64,000 nt of DNA. It comes from Atribacterota bacterium (GTDB lineage Bacteria; Atribacterota; Phoenicimicrobiia; Phoenicimicrobiales; Stramentimicrobiaceae). Both the position numbers and the translations under genes were made by a program. Where the stretch lies: the NCBI GenBank assembly GCA_028717805.1, contig JAQUNC010000005.1, positions 1,238-65,237 on the forward strand, written 5' to 3'. The first letter of the stretch is position 1. Each line of letters begins with the position of its first letter. Shown here piece after piece: positions 29,217 to 50,409 of this stretch. The notes below the pieces were generated by a model. The model searched no databases. It saw only the letters and a program-made list of their open reading frames with translations, and was not told the origin of the DNA.

Positions 29217-29227
29217 GAGGTGAGATT

Positions 29228-31884: not shown

Positions 31885-31885
31885 T

Positions 31886-32227: not shown

Positions 32228-32231
32228 CACA

Positions 32232-32702: not shown

Positions 32703-32730
32703 AATAAAATGAGAAGGTTCAGGTGATAAT

Positions 32731-33246: not shown

Positions 33247-33257
33247 GGTGATTATAG

Positions 33258-35485: not shown

Positions 35486-35568
35486 TATCGAAATTTCTTT
35501 GAAGTTTTGATATTGCTAAAGATAATTTATTTACATAATCTATATAGAAGAAGTGTTCAGATATTCCT

Positions 35569-35597
35569 AAGGGGAAGAATTCCCTAGGGATATCCTG
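35569..35597 (+). repeat. GC-rich hairpin element, copy C (AAGGGGAAGAATTCCCTAGGGATATCCTG)
   Basis: AGGGGAA...TTCCCT inverted repeat with the shared 3' GATATCCTG tail. It sits inside the 217-nt gap between mbhM and mbhN. Confidence 0.4.
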
Positions 35598-35702
35598 ATT
35601 ATAAAATAAAAGAAATTTTTTTAAAATGTATTTACTTTAAGGGATTTTAAGGCCTATCTACCCTGATTAACAGGCAATATAGATGAAATGAGGTGATAAA
35701 GA

Positions 35703-38820: not shown

Positions 38821-38956
38821 ATTTTATAAAATTATTATTTGTTAACAGGAGTGATGTATTTAAAATAAAACTAGATGACGAAATAATTTATGGCCATAAA
38901 TTTAAGGATGAGTTTGACATATATTAAGGGCATATGATAAAATGACTTGGTGTGCT

Positions 38957-38974
38957 TTGTGATATTTTTCACAA
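38957..38974. promoter_or_regulatory. Rex operator (TTGTGATATTTTTCACAA)
   Basis: Matches the Rex-box consensus TTGTGAA-N4-TTCACAA at 16 of 18 positions. It lies 100 nt upstream of the first gene of the sensor-FDH cluster. Confidence 0.7.
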
Positions 38975-39073: not shown

Positions 39074-39421
39074 ATGAAAATAAAAGATATTGTCAATACA
39101 TTAGATGCCGAGGTCTTGACTGGAGAAGACTTGCTAGATCAGAATATTGAGGAGTTTGCAGCCAGTGATCTATTAAGTGATGTTCTTGCTTTAAGCAAGG
39201 ACAATTTTTTATTATTAACTGGATTAACCTCTCATCAGGTGGTAAGAACCGCTGAGATTGCCGGAGGGGTAGGTGTGGTTTTTGTGAGGGGGAAAGCTCC
39301 TGAACAGGAAGCAATTGGTCTAGCTCGTTCCCACCGTATCCCACTTTTAATGACCTCCAAAACAATGTTTGATGCCTGTCGGGCAATTGTTGAGGCAATT
39401 ATTAGTGAAGAGAAGAAATGA
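39074..39421 (+). CDS. DRTGG-domain protein
   Basis: 115 aa; the VVRTAEIAGGVGVVFVRGKAPEQEAIGLARSHRIPLL region fits the DRTGG fold. Such proteins are typically found next to CBS/GHKL proteins. Confidence 0.55.
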   Translation: MKIKDIVNTLDAEVLTGEDLLDQNIEEFAASDLLSDVLALSKDNFLLLTGLTSHQVVRTAEIAGGVGVVFVRGKAPEQEAIGLARSHRIPLLMTSKTMFDACRAIVEAIISEEKK

Positions 39422-40350
39422 CAATTTTACATTCCAGAGAAAAATTAACTTTAGCCAATGAGCTGATTTATGAGTTAAAAGTGAAAGATGCTATGACCAG
39501 TAAGGTAATTTTTTTTGGTGAGCAGGCTACCTTTCGTGAGATTCAATTGTCTTTGAAACAAAATAGAATTTCAGGAGTTCCAATCCTGGATGAGCAGAAA
39601 AATATAATTGGCATTGTCAGTATTGATAATGTAATTACTGCTCTGGATGAAGATTATGTGAACGATACGGTAAAAGATTATATGACTAAAGATGTGATAA
39701 CCATTCCTCAAAATTATTCTTTGGTTTCAGCTATAAAGAAGTTTGAAAGATATAAATTTGGTCGTTTACCGGTAACAGGGAATGCCCATTCCCGTAAAAT
39801 AGTTGGTATCATAACTATGGGAGATATTTTAAATCGACTGCTGCTAACTATTCAAACCATTGCCGAGAAAGTGGAACAAAAAGAAAACAGAAATTATCAG
39901 CTTTCCGATACCTTAATTAAGAATACTCCACAGAAACCACTTCGTTTTGAAGTCAAAAAAGCTGACTTTGATAATGCTGGCAGAGTAGCCAGTATCATAA
40001 GAACTTATCTACAAAAAATGACCATAGATAAACAGATTATTCGAAGAGTTGCCATTATTTGTTATGAGGCAGAGATGAATATTAGTATCCATTCCTTGGG
40101 GGGATATATTTCAGTAGAATTGGAACAGAATAGTATTATTATTACTGCTGTTGATTATGGGCCAGGTATTCCGGATATAGAAGAAGCAATGAAACCTGGT
40201 TTTACAACTGCTTCTGAACAGATCAGAGCTTTAGGATTTGGTGCAGGCATGGGTTTGCCCAATATAAAAAAATGCGCTGATCATCTAGAATTAGAATCTT
40301 CTATGGAAACCGGTACTATTTTAAAAGCAGTTATCCATATAGGAGGATAG
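39418..40350 (+). CDS. CBS-pair + GHKL (anti-sigma-factor-type Ser kinase-like) ATPase domain protein
   Basis: Two CBS domains (ISGVPILDEQKNIIGIVSIDNV; FGRLPVTGNAHSRKIVGIITMGDIL) followed by an HATPase_c-like C-terminus (DYGPGIPDIEEAMKPGFTT...GAGMGL). Confidence 0.75.
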   Translation: MTILHSREKLTLANELIYELKVKDAMTSKVIFFGEQATFREIQLSLKQNRISGVPILDEQKNIIGIVSIDNVITALDEDYVNDTVKDYMTKDVITIPQNYSLVSAIKKFERYKFGRLPVTGNAHSRKIVGIITMGDILNRLLLTIQTIAEKVEQKENRNYQLSDTLIKNTPQKPLRFEVKKADFDNAGRVASIIRTYLQKMTIDKQIIRRVAIICYEAEMNISIHSLGGYISVELEQNSIIITAVDYGPGIPDIEEAMKPGFTTASEQIRALGFGAGMGLPNIKKCADHLELESSMETGTILKAVIHIGG

Positions 40351-40352
40351 AG

Positions 40353-40697
40353 ATGAAATTAAGCCAGATTATAGTTAGATGTTCTTTGCAGAAGATTGTA
40401 TTCTGTTCAGATGAGGAAATCAAAACAGGTTATTGTGGAGATTTAATGTCAGATGTTATTGCCCATGCCAGCAATGATAGTGTATGGATTACTATCCAAG
40501 CACATAAAAACAGTATAGCTGTAGCGCTGATCAAGGATATAAGGGCAATTATCTTTACCAATAATGTAGAAATAAACCAGGAATTGATAGAAAAAGCCAG
40601 GGAAGAACAGATTAATCTATTGAGAACTGAAAAAAATTCTTTTCAAATATGTGGTCTATTGTACCAGATGCTGGGAGGCAAATCTGATCAAGATTGA
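40353..40697 (+). CDS. Small DRTGG-like domain protein
   Basis: 114 aa; resembles the second DRTGG-type protein of hydrogenase-associated sensory modules. Confidence 0.45.
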   Translation: MKLSQIIVRCSLQKIVFCSDEEIKTGYCGDLMSDVIAHASNDSVWITIQAHKNSIAVALIKDIRAIIFTNNVEINQELIEKAREEQINLLRTEKNSFQICGLLYQMLGGKSDQD

Positions 40698-41430
40698 TTT
40701 ACATATTCACTCTTCTCTTTCAGCGTGTGGGGAAAATATTATGTCACCACAAAATATATTGAAAAAGGCAGAAAAAAGTGGATTCAACCTAATTGCTATT
40801 ACTGATCACAATGCGGTTGCCCATTCGATTTTAATTAGTAAAATTAATAAAAAAAGCTCGGTTAATGTTATTCTCGGGATTGAGCTGACTACCCGGGAAG
40901 AGATTCACTTATTGGGTTATTTCCCAGATGAATTTAGTATGAGAGAGATGGAGAAGAAGATAAATGATTGTCTGCCAAAAATGAATAATAAACCTTCTTT
41001 TTTTGGTGACCAGCTAATCTATGATGAAAAAGGAGAGATAGTTGAAATAGATTATATGCTAAGACAAAATGCTTTACAAATAAGCTTAGATGAGTTGATT
41101 GACTTCATTCATTTTCTGGGTGGAATAGCAATACCGGCTCATATTAATAGAGATTACTGTAGTATAAAAAGCCAGATAGGTTTTTTAGATCCTACTAGTA
41201 ATTTTGATGCAGTAGAAGTATCAAGATTCGAATGGATAAATAAGAAATATGAAATAGGAGATTTACTGGAAGGATTCCCGGTAATTAGCGGTTCAGATAG
41301 CCACTTTTTGGAAGATATTGGAACATTTTTTTTGGAAGTAAAAGATGATAATCATGTAATAGATTTTAACTCATTGCAAGATTTTCTAAGGAAGACCGGA
41401 AATGAAAAATATAGCGGACCATCTCTTTGA
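40651..41430 (+). CDS. PHP-domain (polymerase/histidinol-phosphatase) metal-dependent phosphoesterase
   Basis: IDLHIHSSLSACGE...IAITDHN PHP motifs. The ATG at 40651 overlaps the upstream gene by 47 nt and the conserved domain begins near 40693, so the start is uncertain. Confidence 0.78.
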   Translation: MVYCTRCWEANLIKIDLHIHSSLSACGENIMSPQNILKKAEKSGFNLIAITDHNAVAHSILISKINKKSSVNVILGIELTTREEIHLLGYFPDEFSMREMEKKINDCLPKMNNKPSFFGDQLIYDEKGEIVEIDYMLRQNALQISLDELIDFIHFLGGIAIPAHINRDYCSIKSQIGFLDPTSNFDAVEVSRFEWINKKYEIGDLLEGFPVISGSDSHFLEDIGTFFLEVKDDNHVIDFNSLQDFLRKTGNEKYSGPSL

Positions 41431-41938
41431 TATTATAGAAAATTCAGTTAATGCCGGGGCAAATGAAGTTATTGTGAAAATAACTTACACTAAAAGTATT
41501 TTTTTTTGTAGCATTTCCGATAATGGGAAAGGAATTATTGGGCAGGAAGTATTAGATCCTTTTGTAACTTCTAGGAAGACCAGAAGAGTTGGACTGGGTC
41601 TTCCCTTATTAAAAAGAACAGCAGAGGATACCGGCGGATATTTAAAGATAAGAAGGATAAATAAAAAAGGAGGGACTGCGCTTCAATTTAAGATAGACAT
41701 GTCTCATATTGATGCCAAACCTTTTGGTGATTTGGCTTGGACTTTTACAGATATATTCTTTGCCTGGCCGGAAATTAATCTTAAATTATTTATTACAAAA
41801 GAAGATAGAGAGGAACTGATTTTAGATTTCCTGGAATTACGCAATGAAATTGCTAAAGGATTAAAAAATTATATAAAAATAAGAAAACATATTTATGAGG
41901 TATTACAAAAAGAATTTAAAAAAATAAATATTAGGTAA
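41402..41938 (+). CDS. GHKL-type ATPase domain protein (histidine-kinase-like, no sensor or DHp domain)
   Basis: ENSVNAGANEV...SDNGKGI...GLGLPLL are the N, G1 and G2 boxes of an HATPase_c domain. Confidence 0.65.
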   Translation: MKNIADHLFDIIENSVNAGANEVIVKITYTKSIFFCSISDNGKGIIGQEVLDPFVTSRKTRRVGLGLPLLKRTAEDTGGYLKIRRINKKGGTALQFKIDMSHIDAKPFGDLAWTFTDIFFAWPEINLKLFITKEDREELILDFLELRNEIAKGLKNYIKIRKHIYEVLQKEFKKINIR

Positions 41939-41996: not shown

Positions 41997-42365
41997 ATGA
42001 AAAATTTAGAAGAACTAAAAATGATGCGGGAGAAGGTAAAGAAAGATTTAAAGCTTAGATCGGGAAAGCATCGTGTCAAGATAGTAGTAGGAATGGGTAG
42101 TTGTGGAATAGCTGCTGGGGCGAGAGAAACAATGAATGAATTCTTGGAATTGATTGAAAAAAGCAAAAAAACGGATATTATTATTACCGCTTCAGGATGT
42201 TTTGGTTTTTGCGCCCAAGAACCTATGATTCATGTGTATGTAGAAGAAGATAGACCGGTAACTTATCGCAATGTTGATGTAGAAGCAGCAAGGACAATCT
42301 TTAACGATCATGTTTTAAACAATAGAGTAGTAGAAAAATATTTATTTTCAAAGGGGAAAAAATAA
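41997..42365 (+). CDS. Thioredoxin-like [2Fe-2S] ferredoxin (HydD-like)
   Basis: 122 aa with Cys pairs MGSCGIAAG...SGCFGFCAQEP; NuoE-C-terminal-like fold. Confidence 0.7.
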   Translation: MKNLEELKMMREKVKKDLKLRSGKHRVKIVVGMGSCGIAAGARETMNEFLELIEKSKKTDIIITASGCFGFCAQEPMIHVYVEEDRPVTYRNVDVEAARTIFNDHVLNNRVVEKYLFSKGKK

Positions 42366-42862
42366 TGAGTGAAACAACTATCATTAAAAATGATGAATGC
42401 ACTGTTGAAGAAAAGTACCAGGAATTAGGGAGTTTTATTAGAGATAATCAAGAGAAAAGGGGCTATTTAATCCCCGTCTTGTATAAAGCGCAATCCTTGT
42501 TTGGTTATTTACCTTCAGAAGTCCAAAAATTCGTTGCCGAGGAGATGAATATTTCTGTTAGTGAAGTATTTGGAGTGGTTACATTTTATTCTTATTTCAA
42601 AACACAACCTGTAGGTCGGCATACTATTACAATCTGCATGGGAACAGCTTGTTATGTAAGAGGTGCTAAAAAGATTCTGGAGGCATTAGAAAATAAATTG
42701 GGTATAAAGATAGGAGAAACAACAGAAGATCTGAGATTTACTTTAGGAGAACAACGTTGTTTTGGGTCATGCGGAATGGCTCCAGTTATTATGATTGACA
42801 ATGAAGTTCATGGTCGGTTAACTCCCAGTAAATTAGACGCAATTTTAGAGAAATACAAATAG
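42365..42862 (+). CDS. NADH dehydrogenase 24-kDa subunit-like [2Fe-2S] protein (NuoE/HydC/HndA-like)
   Basis: TICMGTACYVRGAKKI...RCFGSCGMAPVIMID is the NuoE signature. Confidence 0.9.
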   Translation: MSETTIIKNDECTVEEKYQELGSFIRDNQEKRGYLIPVLYKAQSLFGYLPSEVQKFVAEEMNISVSEVFGVVTFYSYFKTQPVGRHTITICMGTACYVRGAKKILEALENKLGIKIGETTEDLRFTLGEQRCFGSCGMAPVIMIDNEVHGRLTPSKLDAILEKYK

Positions 42863-42884: not shown

Positions 42885-45800
42885 ATGAATAATATAAGAG
42901 TTCAGCTTCTTCTATGTCATGGTACTTCTTGTATGTCTAATGGTTCAGTAAGAGTTAGAGAAGCGTTGGAAGTGGCATTAAAAGAGGCTAATCTGGAAAA
43001 AGAGGTAGAAATTATTACCACTGGATGTATGGGTATATGTGAACTGGGACCCATTATGGTTGTTTATCCTGATGGAGTGTTTTATCAACAATTAAAACCA
43101 GAGGATGCCCGGGAAATTGTACAGGAACATATCTTAAAAGGCAGAGTAGTGCAGCGGCTTTTTTATAAAAAGCCAAAAACAGAAGAATTAGTAGCTATGA
43201 TAGAAGATATTGATTTCTTTAAATTACAGAGAAAAATTGCTCGCCGAAACTGTGGAATTATTGATGTTAACACCATTGATGATTATATCGGCGCTGATGG
43301 TTTTATGGCTTTAGGGAAAGCTTTGACAGAGATGACTCCCCAGCAAGTAATTGATGAGATTAAAAAATCAGGGTTGAGAGGTAGAGGTGGTGCCGGTTTT
43401 CCAACTGGATTGAAGTGGGAATTTGCAGCAAGAGCCTCTGGAAAACAAAAATATATTTTATGTAATGCAGACGAAGGTGATCCCGGTGCATTTATGGATC
43501 GTAGTATGCTAGAAGGAGACTCTTACAGTGTATTAGAAGCTATGATGATTGGCGGTTATGCTATTGGAGCTAACCAGGGATATATTTATGTACGAGCGGA
43601 GTATCCCTTGGCTATTGAAAGGCTAAAGATTGCCATCAAAGAGATGAGGAAACATCAGCTACTGGGCAAGAATATCCTGGGGACTGGTTTTGATTTTGAT
43701 GTTGAAATTAGAATGGGTGCGGGAGCATTTGTTTGTGGTGAGGAAACTGCTTTAATGCGCTCTATTGAAGGCAAGAGGGGAGAACCCAGGCCAAGACCTC
43801 CCTTCCCTGCTAATAAAGGATTATTTGAATCCCCTACTGTTTTAAATAATGTAGAAACGCTGGCTAATATACCTTATATAATTTTATATGGAGCTGAAAA
43901 TTTTGCTTCTGTTGGAACTGAAAAGAGTAAAGGAACTAAGATATTTGCTCTGGCTGGAAATATTAACAATACCGGTTTAATTGAAGTCCCCATAGGTATT
44001 ACCCTAGGTGAAGTTGTTTATAATATAGGCGGAGGGATTCCGGGAAATAAAAAATTTAAAGCTGTTCAAATTGGCGGTCCGTCTGGTGGTTGCATTCCAG
44101 CACAACATCTGAATACAATAGTTGATTATGAAACATTAAAAGAGCTGGGTGCCATTATGGGCTCAGGCGGATTGATAGTAATGGATGAAGATACCTGTAT
44201 GGTCGATATAGCCCGTTATTTTATGGAGTTTATTCAGGACGAATCTTGTGGTAAATGCACTCCTTGTCGTGAAGGTACCAGGGTGATGCTGGAGATATTA
44301 ACCAGGATTTGTGAAGGTAAGGGCAAGATGGAAGATCTGGATACCCTGGAAGAATTATCTTATCGAATTAAAGATACAGCTCTTTGTGGATTAGGACAAA
44401 CTGCCCCCAATCCGGTTCTATCCACATTAAGATACTTTAGACATGAGTATATCGAACATATTAGAGATAAGAAATGTAGAGCAGGAGTATGTGCAGAATT
44501 AGTATATGCACCTTGTAATAATTCTTGTCCTGCTTCAGTTAATGTACCGGCATATCTGGCTTACACCAAAGAGGGTCAATATAAAAAAGCAATGCAGGCA
44601 CACTTAAGAACAAATCCTTTTCCAGCGGTATGCGGAAGGGTATGCCCTGCTTTCTGTGAATCCAGATGTCGAAGAAAGGATATTGATGATGCCATCAATA
44701 TTCGTGCTGTCAAGAGATTTATGGCTGATCAGGTTGATAATTATCTGGATTGTTTCCCTGAAAAAAATAGTAAAAATGGTAAAAAAGTTGCCATTATTGG
44801 TGGTGGTCCTTCTGGACTTTCCAATGCTTATTTTCTAACTATGTTAGGATATGAAACAACAGTATTTGAAGCACAACCAAAAGCTGGAGGAATGTTAACC
44901 TATGCTATCCCATCTTATCGTTTACCAAAGAATATTGTGAAAAAAGAGATTCAAGCACTGGTAGATTACGGAGTTAAGATACAAACAAACACAAGGATTG
45001 GAGAGGATATGACTTTAGATCAGCTGAGAAAAGAAGGTTACCAAGCATTCTATGTTTCTGCTGGTGCCTGGGACTGCATTATGCCTGAGATGGACAACTT
45101 AGATGATTCCAGAATTTTTAGCGGTTTAGAATTCTTATCTAAATTTAATAGAAAGGAAAAGCTTGATATTGGCAAAGAGGTAATAGTGATTGGTGGCGGT
45201 AATTCTGCCATTGATGCAGCTAGAACTGCTAAAAGGCTTGGAGCAAAGGTTACCATCGTTTATCGAAGAACCAGAGAAGAAATGCCTGCTGATGAAGCTG
45301 AAGTTAATGAAGCTGAAAGAGAAGGTATAAAGATTTCTTTACTACAAAATATAAAGTCAGTGAAATCAAACAAAGATTTCCTGGAAGTAGAGTTAGTGAA
45401 TATGAAATTAGGCAATTATGATGCTTCTGGTCGGCGTAAGCCCATTGAAATTAAAGAATCTACTTTTATCAAGAAAGTCGATTGTTTAATCTTATCTATT
45501 GGGCAAAAACCTGCTATTTCAGATTTATTCCATAATGAAGAAATTGTTCTCAATCGGGATCAGACTATTCCCACTGAAAAAGGAGTAACCAAAATACAAG
45601 ATGTTTTTGCCGGTGGTGATGTGGCATTAGGTCCTGCTACTGTAGTTGAGGCGATAGGAGAAGCACAGAATGCTGCTGAAGCTATTGATTTTTATTTAAC
45701 TGGTAAAAAGAGAGTTTATCCCTGGAGGATAAAAGATCCAATTAACGTGGATTTTGATCCTGAATCAGATCCAGTAGATTACGCACGTTCTCAGGTCCAT

Positions 45801-45914
45801 CTCCTTCCGATTCAAGAAAGAGGAGTTCATAACGAGGTAGAAAAAACATGGAATAAAGAGATAACCTGTAGAGAAAGCAGCAGGTGCTTACGTTGTGAAT
45901 ATCGAGAGGACTAA
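42885..45914 (+). CDS. NuoF-like (NADH/FMN, 4Fe-4S) subunit fused to a GltD/NfnB-like FAD/NAD(P)H oxidoreductase domain
   Basis: N-terminal thioredoxin-like 2Fe-2S (CHGTSCMSNG...GCMGICELGP), NuoF core (GRGGAGFPTGLKWEF; ESCGKCTPCREGT), two Cys clusters (CNNSCPASVN; CGRVCPAFCESRC), then dinucleotide folds VAIIGGGPSGLSNAYFL and VIVIGGGNSAIDAARTA. Confidence 0.9.
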   Translation: MNNIRVQLLLCHGTSCMSNGSVRVREALEVALKEANLEKEVEIITTGCMGICELGPIMVVYPDGVFYQQLKPEDAREIVQEHILKGRVVQRLFYKKPKTEELVAMIEDIDFFKLQRKIARRNCGIIDVNTIDDYIGADGFMALGKALTEMTPQQVIDEIKKSGLRGRGGAGFPTGLKWEFAARASGKQKYILCNADEGDPGAFMDRSMLEGDSYSVLEAMMIGGYAIGANQGYIYVRAEYPLAIERLKIAIKEMRKHQLLGKNILGTGFDFDVEIRMGAGAFVCGEETALMRSIEGKRGEPRPRPPFPANKGLFESPTVLNNVETLANIPYIILYGAENFASVGTEKSKGTKIFALAGNINNTGLIEVPIGITLGEVVYNIGGGIPGNKKFKAVQIGGPSGGCIPAQHLNTIVDYETLKELGAIMGSGGLIVMDEDTCMVDIARYFMEFIQDESCGKCTPCREGTRVMLEILTRICEGKGKMEDLDTLEELSYRIKDTALCGLGQTAPNPVLSTLRYFRHEYIEHIRDKKCRAGVCAELVYAPCNNSCPASVNVPAYLAYTKEGQYKKAMQAHLRTNPFPAVCGRVCPAFCESRCRRKDIDDAINIRAVKRFMADQVDNYLDCFPEKNSKNGKKVAIIGGGPSGLSNAYFLTMLGYETTVFEAQPKAGGMLTYAIPSYRLPKNIVKKEIQALVDYGVKIQTNTRIGEDMTLDQLRKEGYQAFYVSAGAWDCIMPEMDNLDDSRIFSGLEFLSKFNRKEKLDIGKEVIVIGGGNSAIDAARTAKRLGAKVTIVYRRTREEMPADEAEVNEAEREGIKISLLQNIKSVKSNKDFLEVELVNMKLGNYDASGRRKPIEIKESTFIKKVDCLILSIGQKPAISDLFHNEEIVLNRDQTIPTEKGVTKIQDVFAGGDVALGPATVVEAIGEAQNAAEAIDFYLTGKKRVYPWRIKDPINVDFDPESDPVDYARSQVHLLPIQERGVHNEVEKTWNKEITCRESSRCLRCEYRED

Positions 45915-45945
45915 TATTGAAAGAAAGGATTGAAATAGAATTAAA

Positions 45946-48720
45946 ATGAAAGATACAGGAATAAAAAAGGAAAAAATGGCGATGCCGTTGGTCCAAGTAA
46001 CAATAAATGACAAAAAAATTATGGTAGAGCCTGATTCAACAATCCTGGATGCAGCAACTAAGGCAGGCATAAGAATTCCCACGTTATGTGCTATGCCAGA
46101 AATCAATCATTATCCAGGCTCTTGTCGTATGTGTGTGGTAGAGGTTAAAGGTCATCCCTGTCTGGTTGCCTCATGTGTATATCCAGTACAGGAAGGTATG
46201 GTAGTGTATACCCATAGTGAAAGGGTAATTAACGCTCGCCGAGCCGTATTGGAATTATTATTAACTACGCATCCTCTGGATTGTATGACCTGTGAGAAGA
46301 ATGGTGAATGTGATTTGCAAGACTTAGCTTATGAATTGGGGATTAAAGAATCCGGTTTTGGCAGAAGTGAAAGAAACCTTCCTATCGACGAAAGTAATCC
46401 TTTTATTTTAAGAGATTTGAATAAATGCATTCTTTGTCGAAGATGTGTAGAGATATGTAACGAGATTCAACAATCAAGAGCTATTGGATTCGGATATCGT
46501 GGTACAAAAACAGAAGTCATTGCCGGATTGGGCAATAAATTAGGACATGAAACAAAAATTACTATTGGTTCAGAAAAAAATCCCGATTATTCTAATTGTG
46601 TTTCTTGTGGACAGTGTGTTGCGGTATGCCCTGTTGGAGCATTAACTGATAAGGCAGCTATAGGAAAAGGAAGAGCCTGGGAATTTGAAAAAGTTCATAC
46701 TACCTGTAATTACTGTGGATGTGGATGCGGATTTGACCTGAATATTAAAGATGGCAAGGTAGTTAAGGTTACTTCCAATCCTGATAGTGTTGTCAATGGC
46801 ATTAATCTCTGTGTGAAAGGGCGTTTTGGAAATGATTATATTCATAGGGAAGATCGCTTAAAAACTCCCTTAATCAGGAAAAATGGTAAATTAGAACCAG
46901 CTTCCTGGGATGAAGCGCTGCAGTTAATCAGTGATAAATTTCAAGAGATCAAAGAAGAAAGCGGAAAAGATAGCTTAGCGGTTCTTTCTTCAGCCAAATG
47001 TACTAATGAAGAAAACTATCTACTAATGAAATTTGCCAGGGCAGTCCTGGGAACGAATAATGTTGACCATTGTGCCCGGCTTTGCCATTCAGCCACTGTT
47101 GCTGGCTTGGCTCAAACCTTTGGTAGTGGTGCCATGACTAATTCTATTACGGAAATTGCCCATGCTTCGGTTATTTATTTAACCGGTTCCAACACTACTG
47201 AGAACCATCCTATCATTGCCCTGGAAATAAAAAAAGCAGTAACTAAAAATGGAGCAAAATTAATTGTAGCTGATCCTAGAGAAATAGAGTTAGTCAAATA
47301 TGCTACTCTCTGGTTAAGGCATAGACCAGGAACAGATGTAGCCCTGTTTAATGGTTTGATGAATGTTATAATTACTGAGGGATTGGAAGATAAGGAATTT
47401 ATTAAAAAACGAACCGAAGATTATGAAAAAATGAAGGAAGTAGTTCTCAAGTATACCCCAGAAATAGTAGCGAAGATTACCGGAGTTCCTGCCGATGATA
47501 TCAGGAAAGCAGCAAGAATTTATGCTAAAGGTCCTAATACTTCTTTAATTTATTCCATGGGGATTACCCAACATACCAGCGGTACTGATAATGTTCTTTC
47601 AACTGCCAATATAGCGATGTTAACTGGTAATGTAGGGAAGGAGAGTTCAGGAGTAAATCCTTTAAGGGGACAAAGTAATGTTCAGGGCGCTTGTGATATG
47701 GGAGCTTTGCCCAATGTGTATTCCGGTTATCAGACCGTAGCGGACCCCGCAATTCAAGAGAAGTTTTCTAAAGCCTGGCAGGCTGAATTGTCAAATAAGG
47801 TCGGACTCACAGTTGTTGAAATACTTAATGCCGCATATGATGGCAAAGTGAGAGGTATATTCATTATGGCAGAAAATCCAGCTATGTCAGATCCTGATTT
47901 AAACCACGCCCGTGAAGCTTTAAAGAAAACTGATTTTTTAGTGGTATCAGATATGTTTATGACTGAAACAGCTGAAATGGCTGATGTAGTGTTGCCTGGT
48001 GTTAGTTTTGCTGAGAAAGATGGCACTATTACTAATACTGAGAGAAGAGTGCAAAGATTCTATAAAGCTATTGAACCAATAGGAGAATCAAAACCGGAAT
48101 GGCAGATAATCTGTGAACTAGCTCAGAAAATGGGATATAATAATATGAGCTACAATAGCCCTGCTGAAATTATGGAAGAAATTGCTCAACTCACTCCAAT
48201 TTATGGAGGGATACTCTATCCAAGATTGGAAAAAGAAGGGTTGCAATGGCCTTGTCCAGATACCAAACATCCTGGGACAAGGTTCCTGCATAAGGATAAG
48301 TTTAGCAGAGGAAAGGGAAAGTTCTTCCCAGTTGAATTTAGAGAGGCTGCCGAACTTCCTGATGAAGAATATCCTTTAATCTTTACTACTGGAAGAGTAT
48401 TATATCATTTCCATACCGGTACAGTTACCCGAAAATCTAAAGGGCTAAGCGAAGTATATAAAGAAGCATTAGTTGAGATTAGCCCTCAGGATGCCAGCGA
48501 ATTAAGTATAAAAGATGGTGAAATGGTTGAAGTTACCTCTCGAAGAGGAAAGATTCAGGCAAAGGCTAAGGTAACTGAAAAATCTGATAATGGTGTAGTA
48601 TTCATGAGTTTCCATTTCCATGAAGCTGCTGCTAATTTATTAACAATTGCAGCCCTCGATCCAGTTTCTAAGATACCAGAGTATAAAGTGTGTGCTGTTA
48701 AAATTAAAAAGATATCCTAA
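45946..48720 (+). CDS. fdhA: Formate dehydrogenase catalytic subunit, NuoG-fused molybdopterin enzyme, Cys-type (FdhA/FdhF-like)
   Basis: N-terminal 2Fe-2S (CAMPEINHYPGSCRMC), His-liganded 4Fe-4S and 2x4Fe-4S ferredoxin motifs, and a molybdopterin domain with active site CARLCHSATV (Cys-His rather than Sec-His). The likely start is the ATG at 45976 (MAMPLVQ). Confidence 0.9.
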   Translation: MKDTGIKKEKMAMPLVQVTINDKKIMVEPDSTILDAATKAGIRIPTLCAMPEINHYPGSCRMCVVEVKGHPCLVASCVYPVQEGMVVYTHSERVINARRAVLELLLTTHPLDCMTCEKNGECDLQDLAYELGIKESGFGRSERNLPIDESNPFILRDLNKCILCRRCVEICNEIQQSRAIGFGYRGTKTEVIAGLGNKLGHETKITIGSEKNPDYSNCVSCGQCVAVCPVGALTDKAAIGKGRAWEFEKVHTTCNYCGCGCGFDLNIKDGKVVKVTSNPDSVVNGINLCVKGRFGNDYIHREDRLKTPLIRKNGKLEPASWDEALQLISDKFQEIKEESGKDSLAVLSSAKCTNEENYLLMKFARAVLGTNNVDHCARLCHSATVAGLAQTFGSGAMTNSITEIAHASVIYLTGSNTTENHPIIALEIKKAVTKNGAKLIVADPREIELVKYATLWLRHRPGTDVALFNGLMNVIITEGLEDKEFIKKRTEDYEKMKEVVLKYTPEIVAKITGVPADDIRKAARIYAKGPNTSLIYSMGITQHTSGTDNVLSTANIAMLTGNVGKESSGVNPLRGQSNVQGACDMGALPNVYSGYQTVADPAIQEKFSKAWQAELSNKVGLTVVEILNAAYDGKVRGIFIMAENPAMSDPDLNHAREALKKTDFLVVSDMFMTETAEMADVVLPGVSFAEKDGTITNTERRVQRFYKAIEPIGESKPEWQIICELAQKMGYNNMSYNSPAEIMEEIAQLTPIYGGILYPRLEKEGLQWPCPDTKHPGTRFLHKDKFSRGKGKFFPVEFREAAELPDEEYPLIFTTGRVLYHFHTGTVTRKSKGLSEVYKEALVEISPQDASELSIKDGEMVEVTSRRGKIQAKAKVTEKSDNGVVFMSFHFHEAAANLLTIAALDPVSKIPEYKVCAVKIKKIS

Positions 48721-48753: not shown

Positions 48754-49626
48754 TTGAGTACAGAGAAAGATAAAATTCAATTAGCGCAAGATGTAACAAC
48801 GCCATGTAATCCACCAGGTGCAATTGCTAATGCTTTTTGTACTATTGGCAAGAACAAGGCTGGTCTGTCATGGAGTAAAATGATTATCTTAGGTATTCTG
48901 GCGGGTGCTTATATCAGTTTTGGTGCGCAACTGGCTACTATGGTTACTTATGATGCAGTAAAATTTGTAGGTGATGGGATTACTAAATTTTTATTTGGTA
49001 GTGTTTTTTCAGTTGGTCTTATGCTGGTTGTTATTGCCGGAGCAGAATTATTTACCGGAAATAATTTAATCGTGGTGGGCACTTTAAACCAGAATGTTAC
49101 AGTAGGAAAATTGTTAAACAGCTGGGTTTGGGTATATATAGCAAATTTTATTGGTTCTCTTTTGATAGTATGGTTGATGTATAATGCTCAGCTTTGGAAG
49201 ACCGGAAATTTTGCTGTAGGAGCAAAGGCTTTGGCCATAGCCAATGGTAAGGTTAATCTAACCTGGAGTGCAGCTATAGCACGAGGAATTCTCTGTAACT
49301 GGCTGGTATGCCTGGCAGTATGGATGGCAGTAGCAGCTAAGGATGTTCCTGGTAAAATTCTTGGTATCTATTTCCCCATTATGGCTTTTGTAGCCAGTGG
49401 TTTTGAGCATAGTATTGCCAATATGTATTTTGTACCCATGGGTATATTGTTAAAAAATAATACTTCAATAGTAGCAGCAGCAGGATTAACGGATCAGCTT
49501 AGCCGATTGAATTGGGGTAGTTTTTTATTTAATAATTTATTACCAGTAACTATAGGCAATATAATTGGCGGAGCCTTCTTTGTTGCTACTATATATTGGT
49601 ATGTTTATTTAAGAGATAATAAATAA
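48754..49626 (+). CDS. focA: Formate/nitrite transporter family channel (FocA-like)
   Basis: FNT family with 6 TM helices and FNT signatures (AELFTGNN; GILCNWLVCLAVW; FEHSIANMY). Confidence 0.88.
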   Translation: MSTEKDKIQLAQDVTTPCNPPGAIANAFCTIGKNKAGLSWSKMIILGILAGAYISFGAQLATMVTYDAVKFVGDGITKFLFGSVFSVGLMLVVIAGAELFTGNNLIVVGTLNQNVTVGKLLNSWVWVYIANFIGSLLIVWLMYNAQLWKTGNFAVGAKALAIANGKVNLTWSAAIARGILCNWLVCLAVWMAVAAKDVPGKILGIYFPIMAFVASGFEHSIANMYFVPMGILLKNNTSIVAAAGLTDQLSRLNWGSFLFNNLLPVTIGNIIGGAFFVATIYWYVYLRDNK

Positions 49627-49749: not shown

Positions 49750-50409
49750 GTGAGTATAAAAATGAATATAGAGAAAAAATATACTGCTATTTCAGTTATA
49801 GTATTAGCAGGCGGTAGAAGCAGCAGAATAGGTTTAGGTAAAGATAAAGGCTATCTGAAATTTAGGGGCACTATCCTTATAAAACGAGTTATTTTAAATA
49901 TTCTTTCTATAGAAGGGATTACAGAGCAAGATATTATTATTGTAGGACCCAGAGATAGATTTCCCCAATATAAGTTAACTGTAGAGGATATCTACCCCCA
50001 AAAAGGGCCATTAGGAGGGATTTTTTCAGGTTTACAATATTCCAAAACATTTTATAATCTAGTTATAGGATATGATATGCCCTTTATTGAGAAAAGATTA
50101 GTTGCATATATGATAGAAAATATGGAAGGTTATGATATAGTAATTCCCACTCATGGCAAGGAATTATTCGAACCTTTATGTGCCATTTATAGTAAAAATT
50201 GCCTGAAAATAATTGAACAGAATTTAAAAAAGGGTACCCTGGCGGTAAGAGATATTTTTCCCTTTTTAAAAATTCGCTGGATTACCGAAATGGAAATCAG
50301 AAGATGTGATCCAGAATTACATTCTTTTTTTAATATTAATTTTCAAGGTGATTTTATTGAGGCAGAGAAATTGGAAATAGACCGGAGAAAAAAGAATGTT
50401 AACAAATAA
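49750..50409 (+). CDS. mobA: Molybdenum cofactor guanylyltransferase MobA-like
   Basis: N-terminal NTP-transferase motif VLAGGRSSRIG...DKGYL, 219 aa. Confidence 0.78.
   Translation: MSIKMNIEKKYTAISVIVLAGGRSSRIGLGKDKGYLKFRGTILIKRVILNILSIEGITEQDIIIVGPRDRFPQYKLTVEDIYPQKGPLGGIFSGLQYSKTFYNLVIGYDMPFIEKRLVAYMIENMEGYDIVIPTHGKELFEPLCAIYSKNCLKIIEQNLKKGTLAVRDIFPFLKIRWITEMEIRRCDPELHSFFNINFQGDFIEAEKLEIDRRKKNVNK

What the first reader, a model, noticed from the sequence alone, without database searches (positions are those of the whole stretch)
42885..45914. 1009-aa fusion of a NuoF-like NADH/FMN subunit with a GltD/NfnB-like FAD-NAD(P)H oxidoreductase: two pyridine-nucleotide sites in one polypeptide
The protein has a thioredoxin-like 2Fe-2S domain, a complete NuoF core (FMN/NADH site and 4Fe-4S), two additional Cys clusters, and a C-terminal GltD-like domain with two Rossmann GxGxxG motifs. 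Together with the NuoE-like and HydD-like genes and the FDH catalytic subunit, this resembles the Stn/Nfn-type and HytA-E/Fdh-type flavin-based electron-bifurcating modules. A formate dehydrogenase that can reach both the NADH and NADPH pools (or bifurcate to ferredoxin) would be physiologically unusual.
Basis: partly seen in the sequence, partly recalled or inferred. Interest (0 to 1): 0.7.

Follow-up and report, generated by a model that had tools for sequence, protein, structure and literature searches.

The report
NADPH module replaces ferredoxin dock in FDH
The 1009-residue gene is real: it is the flavoprotein subunit of a soluble formate dehydrogenase in which the usual ferredoxin-docking end of a bifurcating-type HydB/NuoF protein has been swapped for an NADPH-FAD module. 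This fusion is widespread in anaerobes, and I found no description of it in the nine full-text literature searches that ran.

Summary
ORF 42885-45914 (+) encodes 1009 aa with these parts:
- thioredoxin-like [2Fe-2S] domain
- NuoF/HydB FMN-NADH core with its [4Fe-4S]
- Zn hinge
- two further [4Fe-4S] sites
- GltD-like FAD/NADPH domain (GxGxxG, GxGxxA, YRRTR).

The N-half is about 70% identical to solved electron-bifurcating HydB and carries every published "bifurcating-type" signature. It lacks the C-terminal 2x[4Fe-4S] ferredoxin-docking domain. At exactly that hinge begins a module most similar to the NADPH port of StnC/NfnA (Nfn-Bfu transhydrogenase). The match includes the Lys cluster ligand (K610) and the permuted C-terminal RCLxC motif.

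The flanking genes are HydD-like, HydC/NuoE-like, Cys-type FdhA, FocA, MobA and FdhD. They sit behind a promoter-like site with a perfect Rex box.

The fusion has the same junction in all 21 full-length copies I examined, from at least 10 phyla. It is usually followed by [FeFe] HydA, and by FdhA in this Atribacterota clade and in one deltaproteobacterium.

Best reading: a Bfu-type core in which NADP(H) takes ferredoxin's place, linking formate/CO2 to both NAD(H) and NADP(H). The mechanism is inferred, not shown. Bifurcation to ferredoxin is the less supported option. I rate it a new variant of a known kind, interest 0.6.

The parts
38227..38820 (+). Rex-like redox-sensing regulator gene (Put_DNA-bind_N + CoA_binding)
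   Evidence: Pfam. The same gene lies upstream of the operon in the Atribacterota loci L004 and L085-L088.
38914..38943 (+). Best sigma-70-like promoter match of the region (TTGACA-18-TAAAAT, 11/12, TG-extended)
   Evidence: This is a consensus match only. The total number of such sites is no greater than in shuffled sequence.
38957..38974 (+). Perfect Rex-operator-like palindrome TTGTGAtattttTCACAA, 14 nt downstream of the -10 hexamer
   Evidence: It is the only match in the window. Shuffles give 0.18 matches on average at up to 1 mismatch, and 16 of 100 shuffles gave at least one such match. The Rex box consensus is from my own knowledge.
39074..41938 (+). Five small regulatory or unknown genes (DRTGG, CBS+HATPase, DRTGG, PHP, HATPase) that travel with the module
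   Evidence: Pfam. The same five genes precede the fusion in Lentisphaerae, Verrucomicrobiota, deltaproteobacterial and Atribacterota loci.
41997..42365 (+). HydD-like thioredoxin-fold protein (122 aa) with only three Cys (C36, C68, C72)
   Evidence: NCBIfam gives a weak 2Fe-2S ferredoxin match. The best PDB matches are the N-terminal domains of StnB/NfnB (8oh5_B residues 2-91, E 1e-15).
42365..42862 (+). HydC/NuoE/BfuC-like subunit (165 aa) with [2Fe-2S] ligands C91, C96, C132, C136
   Evidence: Pfam 2Fe-2S_thioredx, E 1e-52. The best PDB matches are HydC of bifurcating hydrogenases (7t2r_C E 5e-45, 8a6t_C, 7q4v_C).
42885..45914 (+). The finding: a 1009-aa HydB(BfuB)::GltD-like fusion
42885..43169 (+). 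aa 1-95: N-terminal thioredoxin-like [2Fe-2S] domain (the 'B5' site; C11, C16, C48, C52)
   Evidence: Pfam. All four Cys are present in every fusion sequence that covers the position: C16/C48/C52 in 23 of 23, and C11 in 22 of 23 with the last a gap.
43269..44462 (+). aa 129-526: NuoF/HydB core. It holds the FMN/NAD(H) site, the SLBB domain and the B1 [4Fe-4S] (C455, C458, C461, C501). It carries the bifurcating-type signatures A202/M204, F354 and GGPSG397-401.
   Evidence: The criteria are from PMC7311640.
44457..44492 (+). aa 525-536: Zn ('B2') hinge, H525-x5-C531-x4-C536 (with C438), and the fusion junction
   Evidence: Aligned with 'HIRDKKCPAGVC' of solved HydB proteins. The Zn ligand set is from PMC12018979. 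All four residues are invariant in 23 of 23 fusions and 57 of 57 CTD-type HydB.
44508..44738 (+). aa 542-618: GltD-type Fer4_20 domain. It provides ligands for two [4Fe-4S] clusters (C544, C548, C583, C587, C591, C595) and K610, the equivalent of StnC K170.
   Evidence: The role of K170 is from PMC10482914.
44781..45704 (+). aa 633-940: FAD Rossmann fold (G639xG641xxG644), NADP(H) Rossmann fold (G770xG772xxA775) and the 2'-phosphate-type motif Y793-R-R-T-R-x-E-M-P801
45882..45896 (+). aa 1000-1004: terminal R-C-L-R-C. It corresponds to the 'RCLEC' that follows the GltD domain in StnC/NfnA and precedes it in NfnL. It presumably completes one [4Fe-4S].
   Evidence: Alignments. Present in all 20 fusions that reach the C-terminus, and the protein ends 2-9 residues later.
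45946..48720 (+). FdhA (924 aa): a NuoG/BfuA-like N-terminus ([2Fe-2S], a His-ligated [4Fe-4S], 2x[4Fe-4S]) followed by the Mo/W-bisPGD catalytic domain. The metal ligand is Cys380 (HCARLCHS), not selenocysteine.
   Evidence: (TIGR01591, 917 bits).
48754..49626 (+). FocA-type formate channel
   Evidence: Pfam Form_Nir_trans, E 6e-83.
49750..51166 (+). MobA-like (MGD synthesis) and FdhD (sulfuration and cofactor insertion) maturation genes
   Evidence: Pfam.

Best explanation
The gene encodes the flavoprotein (beta, BfuB-type) subunit of a soluble formate dehydrogenase / CO2 reductase that is probably Rex-controlled. The complex would be built from HydD-like + HydC-like + HydB::GltD + FdhA.

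What the sequence shows:
- Residues 1-540 are a complete electron-bifurcating-type HydB core: [2Fe-2S], FMN/NAD(H) site, B1 [4Fe-4S] and Zn hinge.
- At the Zn hinge, the usual ferredoxin-docking 2x[4Fe-4S] domain is replaced by a StnC/NfnA-type NADP(H) port: 2x[4Fe-4S] + FAD + an NADPH-type Rossmann fold.

How it most likely works (inferred):
1. Electrons travel between the Mo/W site and the FeS chain of FdhA and the B1-FMN centre.
2. FMN exchanges hydride with NAD(H).
3. The mobile [2Fe-2S] domain of the HydC-like subunit normally carries electrons from FMN to the ferredoxin-docking clusters. Here it delivers them to the two [4Fe-4S] clusters of the GltD module, and from there to FAD and NADP(H).

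NADP(H) therefore occupies the place of ferredoxin, and the reaction would be 2 formate + NAD+ + NADP+ <-> 2 CO2 + NADH + NADPH.

In this fermentative Atribacterota organism the likely direction is formate production, with export through FocA. The more reducing NADPH pool would help to pull NADH oxidation. Reduced ferredoxin would be handled separately by the adjacent Mbh hydrogenase.

Shown: the architecture, the junction, conservation of the cofactor ligands, and the gene context. Inferred: subunit composition, electron path, coupling, stoichiometry and direction.
For: Architecture:
- Searches give the domain layout.
- The N-half matches bifurcating HydB at E 1e-239 and about 70% identity over residues 5-540. 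The match stops at the hinge.
- There is no CxxCxxCxxxC motif anywhere in the protein. By contrast, 56 of the 59 sequences labelled CTD-type (two of them are cut or split fusion genes) have two such motifs, the first starting 11-12 residues after the last Zn Cys. In the fusion the first GltD-cluster Cys follows after 7 residues.
- All 23 fusion sequences keep A202, M204, F354, GGPSG, the Zn ligands and the B1 ligands. The B5 Cys are kept in every sequence that covers them. These are the published bifurcating signatures (PMC7311640; PMC12018979).

The C-half as an NADPH port:
- It is closest to the NfnA/StnC NADPH port (E 2e-109).
- It has K610 = StnC K170, R679 = StnC R239, GxGxxA, YRR and the terminal RCLRC, all essentially invariant.
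- In Stn this FAD is a non-bifurcating NADPH port (PMC10482914).
- In Bfu enzymes the low-potential electrons go FMN -> C1 -> B3/B4 -> Fd, and Fd docks on the B3/B4 domain (PMC12018979). That is exactly the domain replaced here.

Partnership with a catalytic subunit:
- FdhA has a NuoG-like N-terminus, and no other NuoE/NuoF pair exists in the window.
- Gene spacing is tight, and no intergenic terminator-like site lies between 39074 and 49626.
- The gene directly downstream of the fusion is HydA or FdhA in most of the phyla surveyed. It is FdhA in the window clade (L005, L085-L087) and, independently, in a deltaproteobacterium (L018).

Physiology:
- A Rex gene and a Rex box lie upstream.
- FocA lies downstream.
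- An Mrp-Mbh hydrogenase lies upstream.
Against: - There is no biochemical or structural datum for any member of this fusion family.
- The AlphaFold model is too poor to place the GltD module relative to the core (mean pLDDT 68, pTM 0.49, the hinge below 50). No coordinates or multimer prediction were available.
- In Lentisphaerae the HydD/HydC/fusion trio has no catalytic subunit gene downstream. The trio may therefore work alone.
- In the sister Atribacterota clade a complete hydC2-hydB2-hydA set lies between the fusion and fdhA. The pairing with FdhA is thus not proven even there.
- The energetic gain of using NADPH instead of ferredoxin is modest. By my calculation from the E' values in PMC9304861, it is about 50 mV over NADH alone, or roughly a 50-fold higher tolerable formate level.
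- It is unclear why a full bifurcating core would be retained for that gain.
- In NfnL the distal [4Fe-4S] of this fold is the ferredoxin site, so ferredoxin binding cannot be excluded.
Confidence: 0.45

Rival explanations
1. Uncoupled dual-specificity enzyme. The complex is a non-bifurcating formate dehydrogenase with two independent exits: NAD(H) at FMN and NADP(H) at FAD. It lets formate or CO2 equilibrate with either pool, with no obligatory coupling between them.
For: - Both nucleotide sites are intact.
- The StnC-type FAD is non-bifurcating.
- The canonical ferredoxin dock is absent.
- Reduction of both NAD+ and NADP+ by formate is exergonic at standard potentials (table in PMC9304861).
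Against: All 23 fusions keep every residue that distinguishes bifurcating from non-bifurcating HydB. These include the Zn hinge His, GGPSG and the N-terminal [2Fe-2S]. The non-bifurcating HydB2 proteins encoded in the same operons of relatives have lost them. Such strict retention is unexplained if no gating or coupling is needed.
Confidence: 0.22
2. Stand-alone transhydrogenase. HydD-like + HydC-like + the fusion form a self-sufficient NADH/NADPH transhydrogenase, possibly Stn-like and ferredoxin-dependent. It would merely be co-transcribed with FdhA or HydA, or would serve them only loosely.
For: - In Lentisphaerae loci L001-L003 the trio has no A-subunit gene downstream.
- In L004, L007, L015 and L088 it is followed by a complete, separate HydC2-B2-A set.
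- All the modules of Stn except the inactive FdhF-like domain are present.
Against: - FdhA in the window has a NuoG-like N-terminal domain, which in solved relatives docks on a NuoEF pair (6tg9, 7vw6). No other pair is encoded in the window.
- In seven loci that together cover six differently labelled lineages, HydA directly follows the fusion: L006 Nitrospiraceae, L014 and L029 Firmicutes/Bacillota, L020 Brocadiia, L010 Armatimonadota, L009 Deltaproteobacteria and L011 Halanaerobiales. In five of them (L006, L010, L014, L020, L029) no second NuoF-like gene was seen in the stretch held.
- The B1 cluster, the entry point from the A subunit, is invariant.
Confidence: 0.15
3. Still ferredoxin-dependent: a four-substrate enzyme. 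Ferredoxin docks on the distal [4Fe-4S] of the GltD module, as it does on NfnL. The complex would then confurcate NADH + reduced ferredoxin to formate, as the Atribacteria literature assumes ('EBFdh'), with NADP(H) as an additional side port.
For: - The bifurcating signatures are kept.
- Per my own knowledge of NfnSL, the two [4Fe-4S] clusters of this fold lead to ferredoxin in that enzyme.
- JS1 genome papers label this locus an electron-bifurcating FDH (PMC6776118).
Against: - The experimentally defined ferredoxin site of Bfu enzymes lies between the HydC CTD and the B3/B4 domain, and that domain is missing.
- The module is of the StnC type (Lys ligand), which 'lost the ability to bifurcate' and is buried in an electron wire rather than exposed to ferredoxin.
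- The organism has an Mbh hydrogenase next door for reduced ferredoxin.
Confidence: 0.15
4. The GltD-like half is an inactive structural remnant, like the FdhF-like domain of StnC. The enzyme would be an ordinary NADH-dependent FDH.
For: Inactive relic domains do occur in this enzyme family: the StnC FdhF-like domain is one.
Against: - The eight Cys ligands are invariant or nearly so: C583 is Leu in 1 of 21, and C1001/C1004 are present in all 20 copies that reach the C-terminus. K610, R679, GxGxxG and GxGxxA are invariant across 21 sequences. YRR is present in 20 of 21. These sequences are only 38-48% identical in this half.
- Mean column identity of alignment A1 is 75%.
Confidence: 0.03

Closest known systems
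BfuB/HydB subunit of electron-bifurcating HydABC-type (Bfu family) enzymes, e.g. Acetomicrobium mobile NiFe-HydB (7t2r_B) and Acetobacterium woodii HydB (7q4v_B)
   Same: - About 70% identity over residues 5-540.
- N-terminal [2Fe-2S] domain, FMN/NAD(H) site, B1 [4Fe-4S] and the Zn hinge His/Cys3.
- All the Losey bifurcating-type residues.
- A partner HydC-like subunit with a [2Fe-2S].
   Different: It lacks the C-terminal ferredoxin-like domain with clusters B3/B4, the experimentally defined ferredoxin dock. In its place it carries about 470 residues of NADPH-FAD module. It would not meet the InterPro domain rule used to collect BfuB sequences in PMC9304861. That probably explains why it was not catalogued there.
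StnABC / NfnABC (Nfn-Bfu) transhydrogenase: Sporomusa ovata 8oh5, Caldicellulosiruptor saccharolyticus 9bov, Thermococcus sibiricus 9n5u
   Same: - It uses the same building blocks: HydC-like, HydB-like, a GltD-like NADPH port and a NuoG/FdhF-like subunit.
- The C-half is most similar to this GltD-like domain in particular (E 2e-109 to 2e-90).
- It shares the Lys ligand (K610 = K170), the GxGxxA motif and the RCLxC motif placed after the domain.
- The HydD-like protein resembles the StnB/NfnB N-terminal domain.
   Different: - In Stn the GltD domain is inserted in the NuoG-like subunit and feeds the mid-potential entry. StnB keeps its ferredoxin dock, and the FdhF-like domain is inactive.
- Here the GltD domain hangs on the HydB hinge in place of the ferredoxin dock, and the molybdopterin subunit is by sequence a bona fide FDH.
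- There is also an extra invariant Cys (C583) where StnC/NfnA have Ile/Leu.
NfnSL (NfnAB) large subunit, SudA and GltD (5jca_L, 4ylf_B, 2vdc_G)
   Same: The fold and cofactor set are the same: two [4Fe-4S], FAD and NADPH. The E-values are 2e-85 to 2e-59. The Foldseek TM-score normalised to the target is 0.77-0.78.
   Different: - No NfnS/PyrK-like partner gene is present.
- A Lys replaces the Glu cluster ligand of NfnL.
- The RCLxC motif is at the C-terminus instead of the N-terminus.
NAD+-dependent metal FDH FdsABG / FoDH1 (Rhodobacter capsulatus 6tg9, Cupriavidus necator 6vw7, Methylobacterium extorquens 7vw6)
   Same: FdhA aligns over its full length (E 1e-212 to 1e-215). The logic is the same: a NuoG-like alpha subunit plus a NuoF-like beta and a NuoE-like gamma.
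   Different: - FdsB is a non-bifurcating NuoF type. It matches only residues about 101-521, at E 1e-115.
- It has no second nucleotide site and no HydD-like protein.
Electron-bifurcating FDH HylABC-FdhF2 of Gottschalkia (Clostridium) acidurici. This is the model used for the 'EBFdh' label of JS1 Atribacteria.
   Same: An FDH catalytic subunit coupled to a HydBC-type bifurcating core. This is the interpretation given to this locus type in PMC6776118.
   Different: That enzyme uses NAD+ and ferredoxin (title and citation only). I did not compare its sequences here. The protein in the window lacks the ferredoxin-dock domain and has an NADPH port instead.

Membership tests
Bfu family, BfuB subunit (definition of Schut et al. 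2022, PMC9304861) | NuoF FMN-binding domain (IPR011538), SLBB (IPR019554) and NuoF [4Fe-4S] domain (IPR019575) | tested here: met
   Pfam equivalents PF01512 (E 7e-46) and PF10589 (E 2e-37) are well above their cut-offs. PF10531 scores 27.6 bits against a cut-off of 27.0, which is marginal.
Bfu family, BfuB subunit (definition of Schut et al. 2022, PMC9304861) | C-terminal 4Fe-4S ferredoxin-type domain (IPR017896) carrying clusters B3/B4, with two CX2CX2CX3CP motifs | tested here: not met
   No Fer4-family Pfam hit other than the GltD-type Fer4_20. There is no CxxCxxCxxxC motif in the protein, whereas 56 of the 59 sequences labelled CTD-type have two. InterPro itself could not be run.
Bfu family, BfuBC core | Flavobicluster ligands: B1 [4Fe-4S] in B and C1 [2Fe-2S] in a NuoE-like C subunit (IPR002023) | tested here: met
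   C455, C458, C461 and C501 are invariant. The NuoE-like gene has C91, C96, C132 and C136 and hits PF01257 at E 1e-52.
Bfu family, BfuBC core | Zn ('B2') hinge: three Cys plus the His that is conserved in Bfu B subunits | tested here: met
   H525, C531, C536 and C438 align to HIRDKKCPAGVC of solved HydB and are present in 23 of 23 fusions. The ligand set is from PMC12018979.
Bifurcating versus non-bifurcating HydB (criteria of Losey et al. 2020, PMC7311640) | Ala/Glu and Met in the NADH loop, Phe (not Tyr) near FMN, and a GGPSG motif | tested here: met
   A202, M204, F354 and GGPSG397-401 are present in 23 of 23 fusions. The co-encoded short HydB2 proteins mostly show Thr/Lys, lack GGPSG, and have Tyr in 6 of 14.
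Bfu family (function) | Ferredoxin- and NAD-dependent electron bifurcation or confurcation | not testable with these tools
   This needs enzyme assays. Loss of the ferredoxin-dock domain argues against the canonical reaction.
Stn / Nfn-Bfu transhydrogenase | GltD-like NADPH port of the StnC type: a Lys (K170) ligand to the FAD-proximal cluster, GxGxxA, and the RCLxC motif after the domain | tested here: met
   K610, G770xG772xxA775 and R1000-C-L-R-C1004 are present. The best PDB matches are NfnA/StnC. The features are invariant in 20-21 of 21 sequences. The criteria are from PMC10482914 and PMC7483475.
Stn / Nfn-Bfu transhydrogenase | The GltD-like domain is embedded in the NuoG/FdhF-like subunit, with an inactive molybdopterin-like domain, and StnB keeps its ferredoxin-like CTD | tested here: not met
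   The GltD module is fused to the HydB-like subunit. FdhA scores 917 bits on the Fdh-alpha equivalog and has the Cys380-His381 and Arg578 active-site motifs. The CTD is absent.
NfnSL (NfnAB) | A small PyrK-like subunit with FAD and [2Fe-2S], and a Glu ligand on the proximal cluster of the large subunit | tested here: not met
   No such gene lies in 36-54 kb of the window. There is a Lys at the Glu position (alignment to 5jca_L).
NADP(H)-specific GltD-type Rossmann site | GxGxxA, no acidic residue at the end of beta-2, and Arg residues for the 2'-phosphate (YRRxxxEMPA, shared with NADPH-using NfnL/StnC/GltD) | tested here: met
   GGGNSA at 770 and YRRTREEMPA at 793. YRR is kept in 20 of 21 sequences. 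Specificity itself was not assayed, and no NADH-specific homologue was compared.
NAD(H) preference of the NuoF-type site | The conserved Glu of the GEET motif, which in complex I NuoF discriminates against the 2'-phosphate (my own knowledge, E. coli NuoF E183) | tested here: inconclusive
   E286 and E287 are present in 23 of 23 fusions. However, the same motif also occurs in HydB homologues whose specificity I could not check.
Metal-dependent formate dehydrogenase, alpha subunit | Fdh-alpha equivalog score, Cys/Sec-His at the metal site, an Arg in the substrate pocket, a [4Fe-4S] next to the pterin, and maturation genes | tested here: met
   TIGR01591 scores 916.8 against a cut-off of 666. HCARLC380H381S and LR578GQSNVQG are present (residue roles are from my knowledge of E. 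coli FdhH). Molybdop_Fe4S4, FdhD and MobA are present. Whether the metal is Mo or W is not testable.

The most novel reading that the evidence does not exclude
The HydB::GltD proteins define an undescribed branch of the Bfu family in which NADP(H) replaces ferredoxin as the second, low-potential partner. The resulting enzymes would be NADH+NADPH-confurcating (or NAD+/NADP+ co-reducing) formate dehydrogenases and [FeFe] hydrogenases. They would be spread by transfer across at least 10 phyla. If so, the 'electron-bifurcating FDH' assumed in metabolic models of subsurface JS1 Atribacteria does not use ferredoxin at all.
Probability: 0.3. Interest if true: 0.8.

Novelty: new variant of a known kind. 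Interest (0 to 1): 0.6.

Why it matters
Bfu-type enzymes are a major route by which anaerobes balance NADH, ferredoxin and H2 or formate. Their ferredoxin site and 'flavobicluster' mechanism were defined structurally only in 2025.

A natural variant that keeps the whole bifurcating core but swaps the ferredoxin dock for an NADPH-FAD module raises two possibilities:
- It may be a new reaction type, coupling the NADH and NADPH pools to formate or H2.
- It may be a built-in experiment on what the low-potential branch needs.

It also bears directly on metabolic models of Atribacterota (JS1), which are abundant in marine subsurface sediments and oil reservoirs. In those models this locus is currently read as an NADH+ferredoxin 'bifurcating FDH'.

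The family is large. All of the best 120 database clusters (90% identity) listed for the whole protein have the fused architecture, most of them full-length. Roughly 100 of the 150 best representatives at 50% identity span the junction. Nearly all are annotated simply as 'NuoF'.

Tried and rejected
1. Literature. I made ten search calls, one of which was rejected for term syntax. I also read passages in 11 papers. None describes a NuoF/HydB-GltD fusion. The library lacks most subscription journals, so absence is not proof.
2. AlphaFold2 on the 15-sequence alignment. The result was mean pLDDT 68 and pTM 0.49, with the NuoF half and the hinge poorly modelled. It is unusable for inter-domain geometry. 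Foldseek against the PDB only re-found the two halves separately, and no solved chain covers both.
3. My first Rex-box pattern used the wrong spacer and gave only chance-level hits. Reading the sequence and using the correct 6-nt spacer gave one perfect site.
4. I considered that C531/C536 might be ligands of the first GltD cluster. I rejected this because they align with the conserved Zn-hinge 'DKKCPAGVC' of all solved HydB proteins.
5. I considered repeated independent fusions. The NJ tree places 4 deltaproteobacterial fusions outside the main clade. However, the junction is identical in length and position in all 21, so a single origin with poor tree resolution and later gene transfer is more likely. 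This remains unresolved.
6. The junction-peptide search gives only a rough family size. Many of the representatives are gene fragments, and some hits of about 640-750 aa are a different architecture.

Full report
OBSERVATION

Pfam places six domains in order. Five are well above their gathering scores. The sixth, SLBB, only just clears its cut-off (27.6 bits against 27.0).
- Thioredoxin-like [2Fe-2S], residues 6-81
- Complex1_51K FMN-binding, 159-330
- SLBB, 354-402
- NuoF [4Fe-4S], 441-525
- Fer4_20 (the two-cluster domain of GltD and dihydropyrimidine dehydrogenase), 532-618
- Pyr_redox_2, 633-927

NCBIfam sees nuoF_fam over 129-526 and an NAD(P)-binding GltD-type model over 496-1004.

Both glycine motifs are intact: GGGPSG at 639 and GGGNSA at 770. 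The second is followed by YRRTREEMPA at 793.

The neighbours are as described:
- a 122-aa HydD-like protein
- a 165-aa NuoE/HydC-like protein
- a 924-aa FdhA with a NuoG-like N-terminus
- FocA, MobA and FdhD

FdhA has Cys380, not selenocysteine, at the metal site (HCARLCHS).

ANATOMY OF THE TWO HALVES

Residues 5-540 align end to end with the B subunits of structurally solved electron-bifurcating enzymes at about 70% identity:
- A. mobile NiFe-HydB 7t2r_B, E 1e-239
- 7q4v_B, E 3e-236
- also the B subunits of Csac and Tsi NfnABC and of S. ovata Stn

Every alignment stops right after the conserved motif HIRDKKCxAGVC. According to the T. sibiricus NfnABC structure paper, this motif provides the His and two of the three Cys of the Zn ("B2") hinge. 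The hinge links the core to the ferredoxin-like C-terminal domain carrying clusters B3 and B4. Ferredoxin docks between that domain and the mobile [2Fe-2S] domain of the C subunit (PMC12018979).

In the window protein that domain is missing. There is no CxxCxxCxxxC motif anywhere. By contrast, 56 of the 59 sequences labelled CTD-type (two of which are in fact a cut and a split fusion gene) have two such motifs, the first starting 11-12 residues after the last Zn cysteine. Instead, 7 residues after C536 comes PC544NNSC548P, the start of the GltD-type cluster domain.

The C-terminal half (542-1005) is most similar to the GltD-like NADPH port inside the A/C subunits of Nfn-Bfu/Stn transhydrogenases, not to free NfnL or GltD:
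- 9n5u_A, E 2e-109
- 9bov_A, E 6e-105
- 8oh5_C, E 2e-90
- NfnL 5jca_L, E 2e-85
- GltD, E 2e-59

Three qualitative features agree with the StnC type:
1. K610 aligns with StnC K170. This is the Lys ligand of the FAD-proximal cluster, strictly conserved in StnC and replaced by Glu in NfnB/NfnL (PMC10482914).
2. The motif R-C-L-R-C closes the protein. This corresponds to "EASRCLEC", which follows the GltD domain in StnC/NfnA. In NfnL the same motif precedes the domain.
3. The NADPH-type GxGxxA is present (PMC7483475).

In Stn this FAD is a non-bifurcating NADPH entry port.

One family-specific feature is an additional Cys, C583, conserved in 20 of 21 fusions. StnC and NfnA have Ile or Leu at this position, and NfnL has Thr. 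I cannot say what it does.

IS THE N-HALF A "BIFURCATING" CORE?

Losey et al. list residues that separate bifurcating from non-bifurcating HydB (PMC7311640): Ala/Glu and Met in the NADH loop, Phe rather than Tyr near FMN, and the motif GGPSG.

The window protein has A202, M204, F354 and GGPSG397-401. I extracted 94 HydB-like proteins from the fetched loci and sorted them by their C-terminal tail:
- All 23 fusion sequences carry these residues, the Zn ligands and the B1 ligands. The four Cys of the N-terminal [2Fe-2S] are present wherever the sequence covers them.
- All 57 CTD-type proteins carry the Losey residues, the Zn ligands and the B1 ligands. A few lack one or another Cys of the N-terminal [2Fe-2S].
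- The 14 "short" proteins (526-567 aa, plus one of 792 aa) mostly lack them. Ten have Thr/Lys, six have Tyr, and the GGPSG motif, Zn ligands and N-terminal Cys are often missing.

CONTEXT AND DISTRIBUTION

All of the best 120 clusters (90% identity) in the 5.8-billion-protein search have the fused architecture, and most are full-length at about 990-1020 aa. Named sources are Atribacterota/Caldatribacteriota (70-98% identity) and Lentisphaerota, Victivallales and Verrucomicrobiota (about 60%). They are annotated "NuoF" or "hydrogenase".

A junction-spanning 97-residue query gave 429 representatives at E <= 1e-10 against 1.84 billion representatives at 50% identity. By eye, roughly 100 of the best 150 span both sides of the junction, although many are fragments.

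The genome scan found full-length fusions in Nitrospiraceae, Actinomycetota, Armatimonadota, Halanaerobiales, Firmicutes, Brocadiia, Smithella, Desulfobacterales and other deltaproteobacterial MAGs.

My ORF/BLASTP survey of these loci shows what lies directly downstream of the fusion:

| Downstream of the fusion | Loci |
|---|---|
| [FeFe] hydrogenase HydA | L006, L009, L011, L014, L020, L029, and L010 (after HydD) |
| Second set HydC2-HydB2(short)-HydA | L004, L007, L015, L088 |
| FdhA | window, L005, L085-L087 (83-98% identity clade) and, independently, deltaproteobacterial L018 |
| No catalytic subunit gene | Lentisphaerae L001-L003 |

In L018 the FdhA gene has TGA (selenocysteine) where the window has Cys380.

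The junction has the same length and position in all 21 full-length fusions. A crude NJ tree puts 17 of the 21 in one clade nested among CTD-bearing HydB. A single fusion event followed by lateral spread is therefore the simplest history, but it is not proven.

Within Atribacterota the whole neighbourhood is syntenic: Mrp-Mbh hydrogenase, HycI, SPOR, Rex, five small regulator genes, the trio, then FdhA-FocA-MobA-FdhD. The window clade differs from the 70-77% clade by lacking the hydC2-hydB2-hydA cassette between the fusion and fdhA.

The window contains no other NuoE, NuoF or HydA homologue.

REGULATION

The best promoter-like site of the region is at 38914-38943. It is followed 14 nt later by the perfect palindrome TTGTGAtattttTCACAA at 38957-38974. 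This is the only such site in the window. Shuffles gave 0.18 matches on average at up to 1 mismatch, and 16 of 100 shuffles produced at least one such match, so the site alone is only suggestive.

To my knowledge this is the Rex operator consensus, and a Rex-like gene lies immediately upstream. No terminator-like site falls in an intergenic gap between 39074 and 49626. The cluster therefore looks like one operon responsive to NADH/NAD+. This is inferred.

MECHANISM

In Bfu enzymes, the third substrate feeds the B1-FMN-C1 "flavobicluster" through the A subunit. NAD(H) binds at FMN. The C1 [2Fe-2S] domain swings to hand low-potential electrons to B3/B4 and then to ferredoxin (PMC11829005 and PMC12018979).

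The window protein keeps everything up to the hinge. It then substitutes a two-[4Fe-4S] + FAD + NADPH module for the two-[4Fe-4S] ferredoxin dock.

The most economical reading is that NADP(H) now sits at the end of the branch that normally ends at ferredoxin. The reaction would be 2 formate + NAD+ + NADP+ <-> 2 CO2 + NADH + NADPH.

I used the physiological potentials tabulated by Schut et al.: NADH about -280 mV, NADPH about -380 mV, ferredoxin about -500 mV, formate -420 mV. By my own arithmetic, confurcating NADH with NADPH gives about -330 mV. That is about 50 mV, or a roughly 50-fold higher tolerable formate concentration, better than NADH alone. It is far less than with ferredoxin.

Three features point to formate production and export as a sink for NAD(P)H, with reduced ferredoxin going to the Mbh hydrogenase: FocA downstream, the Rex control, and the Mbh hydrogenase next door.

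All of this is inference. The weak points are these:
- The energetic benefit is modest.
- The Lentisphaerae trio has no adjacent catalytic subunit.
- There is no geometric evidence. The AlphaFold model was poor (pLDDT 68, pTM 0.49), and no solved chain covers both halves.

The rivals, all open, are:
- an uncoupled dual-specificity enzyme
- a stand-alone transhydrogenase
- a still ferredoxin-dependent four-substrate enzyme

An inactive relic domain is essentially excluded by the conservation pattern.

COMPARISON WITH WHAT IS KNOWN

The protein works like, and is descended from, the Bfu B subunit. It fails one defining feature of the published family definition, the ferredoxin-type CTD (IPR017896).

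It contains a StnC-type NADPH port but is not an Stn enzyme. The port sits on a different subunit, and the molybdopterin subunit is by sequence a genuine FDH.

It is not NfnSL, since it has no small subunit and carries Lys instead of Glu.

FdhA itself is an ordinary FdsA/FoDH1-like alpha subunit.

Genome papers on JS1 Atribacteria call this locus an "electron-bifurcating formate dehydrogenase" that oxidises NADH plus reduced ferredoxin, by analogy with the Clostridium acidurici enzyme (PMC6776118). The architecture found here makes that assignment doubtful.

I made ten full-text search calls, one of which was rejected for term syntax, and read passages in 11 papers. I found no description of this fusion. 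The library omits most subscription journals, so I cannot exclude one.

VERDICT

It is a new variant of a known kind. Interest is 0.6. It is a widespread, conserved and apparently uncatalogued rewiring of a mechanistically topical enzyme family, but its function rests entirely on inference.

Noticed in passing
window 38914-38974: A promoter-like site (11/12, TG-extended) is followed by a perfect Rex-box-like palindrome, TTGTGAtattttTCACAA. Both lie directly downstream of a Rex-like gene (38227-38820). This suggests NADH/NAD+-responsive control of the whole regulator-hydDC-fusion-fdhA operon.
   Followed up: partly
window 27837-36110 (+), 36527-36973 (-), 51877-54192 (+): An Mrp-Mbh-type membrane-bound group-4 [NiFe] hydrogenase cluster lies here (MnhE, MnhB, antiporter-like subunit, small and large subunits, NuoH-like, 2x[4Fe-4S]). 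The HycI protease and HypF flank the FDH operon. The order is syntenic in the Atribacterota loci L004 and L085-L088.
   Followed up: partly
L004 11054-14975; L015 13797-17743; L088 12048-15982; L007 11602-15609; L009 5632-9451; L011 6638-10478: In 6 of about 20 loci the fusion shares its operon with a second hydC2-hydB2-hydA set. The hydB2 product is 526-548 aa. In these sets HydB2 carries the non-bifurcating signature (Thr/Lys; in some Tyr; no GGPSG; often no Zn ligands or N-terminal Cys). The window clade has lost this cassette.
   Followed up: partly
L001-L003 7119-11036: In Lentisphaerae the HydD-like/HydC-like/fusion trio ends the operon, with no HydA or FdhA gene downstream. A canonical HydC-HydB pair is encoded divergently upstream. 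The trio may function alone or with a partner encoded elsewhere.
   Followed up: no
L018 13772-16471: The deltaproteobacterial FdhA downstream of a fusion gene has an in-frame TGA exactly where the window FdhA has Cys380 (HCARL*HS against HCARLCHS). This is a selenocysteine version of the same arrangement.
   Followed up: yes
window 41997-42365: The HydD-like protein has only three Cys (C36, C68, C72). [quoted passage not shown] Its role is unknown.
   Followed up: partly
window 44631-44633 (residue C583 of the fusion): This extra cysteine in the GltD-type cluster domain is conserved in 20 of 21 fusions. The StnC/NfnA/NfnL positions hold Ile, Leu or Thr instead. The StnC-type Lys ligand (K610) is retained as well. 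The cluster coordination may differ from all solved relatives.
   Followed up: no
L015 10809-13800: In Atribacteria MAG UBA4082 the fusion gene is split into ORFs of 620 and 370 aa, with about 45 residues unaccounted for. This is either a frameshift or assembly error, or a pseudogene.
   Followed up: no
L013 4818-9816; L026 12093-13997: Other rearrangements of the same modules occur in Desulfobacterales MAGs. One is a 695-aa GltD-like protein next to a 972-aa FdhA-like protein with a C-terminal NuoE-like domain, upstream of a fusion gene. Another is an unfused 600-aa HydB followed by a separate 634-aa GltD-like protein.
   Followed up: no
window 39093-39398 (-) and 45742-45996 (-): Antisense ORFs of 101 and 84 aa lie inside or overlap well-supported genes on the + strand. 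They are most likely spurious.
   Followed up: no
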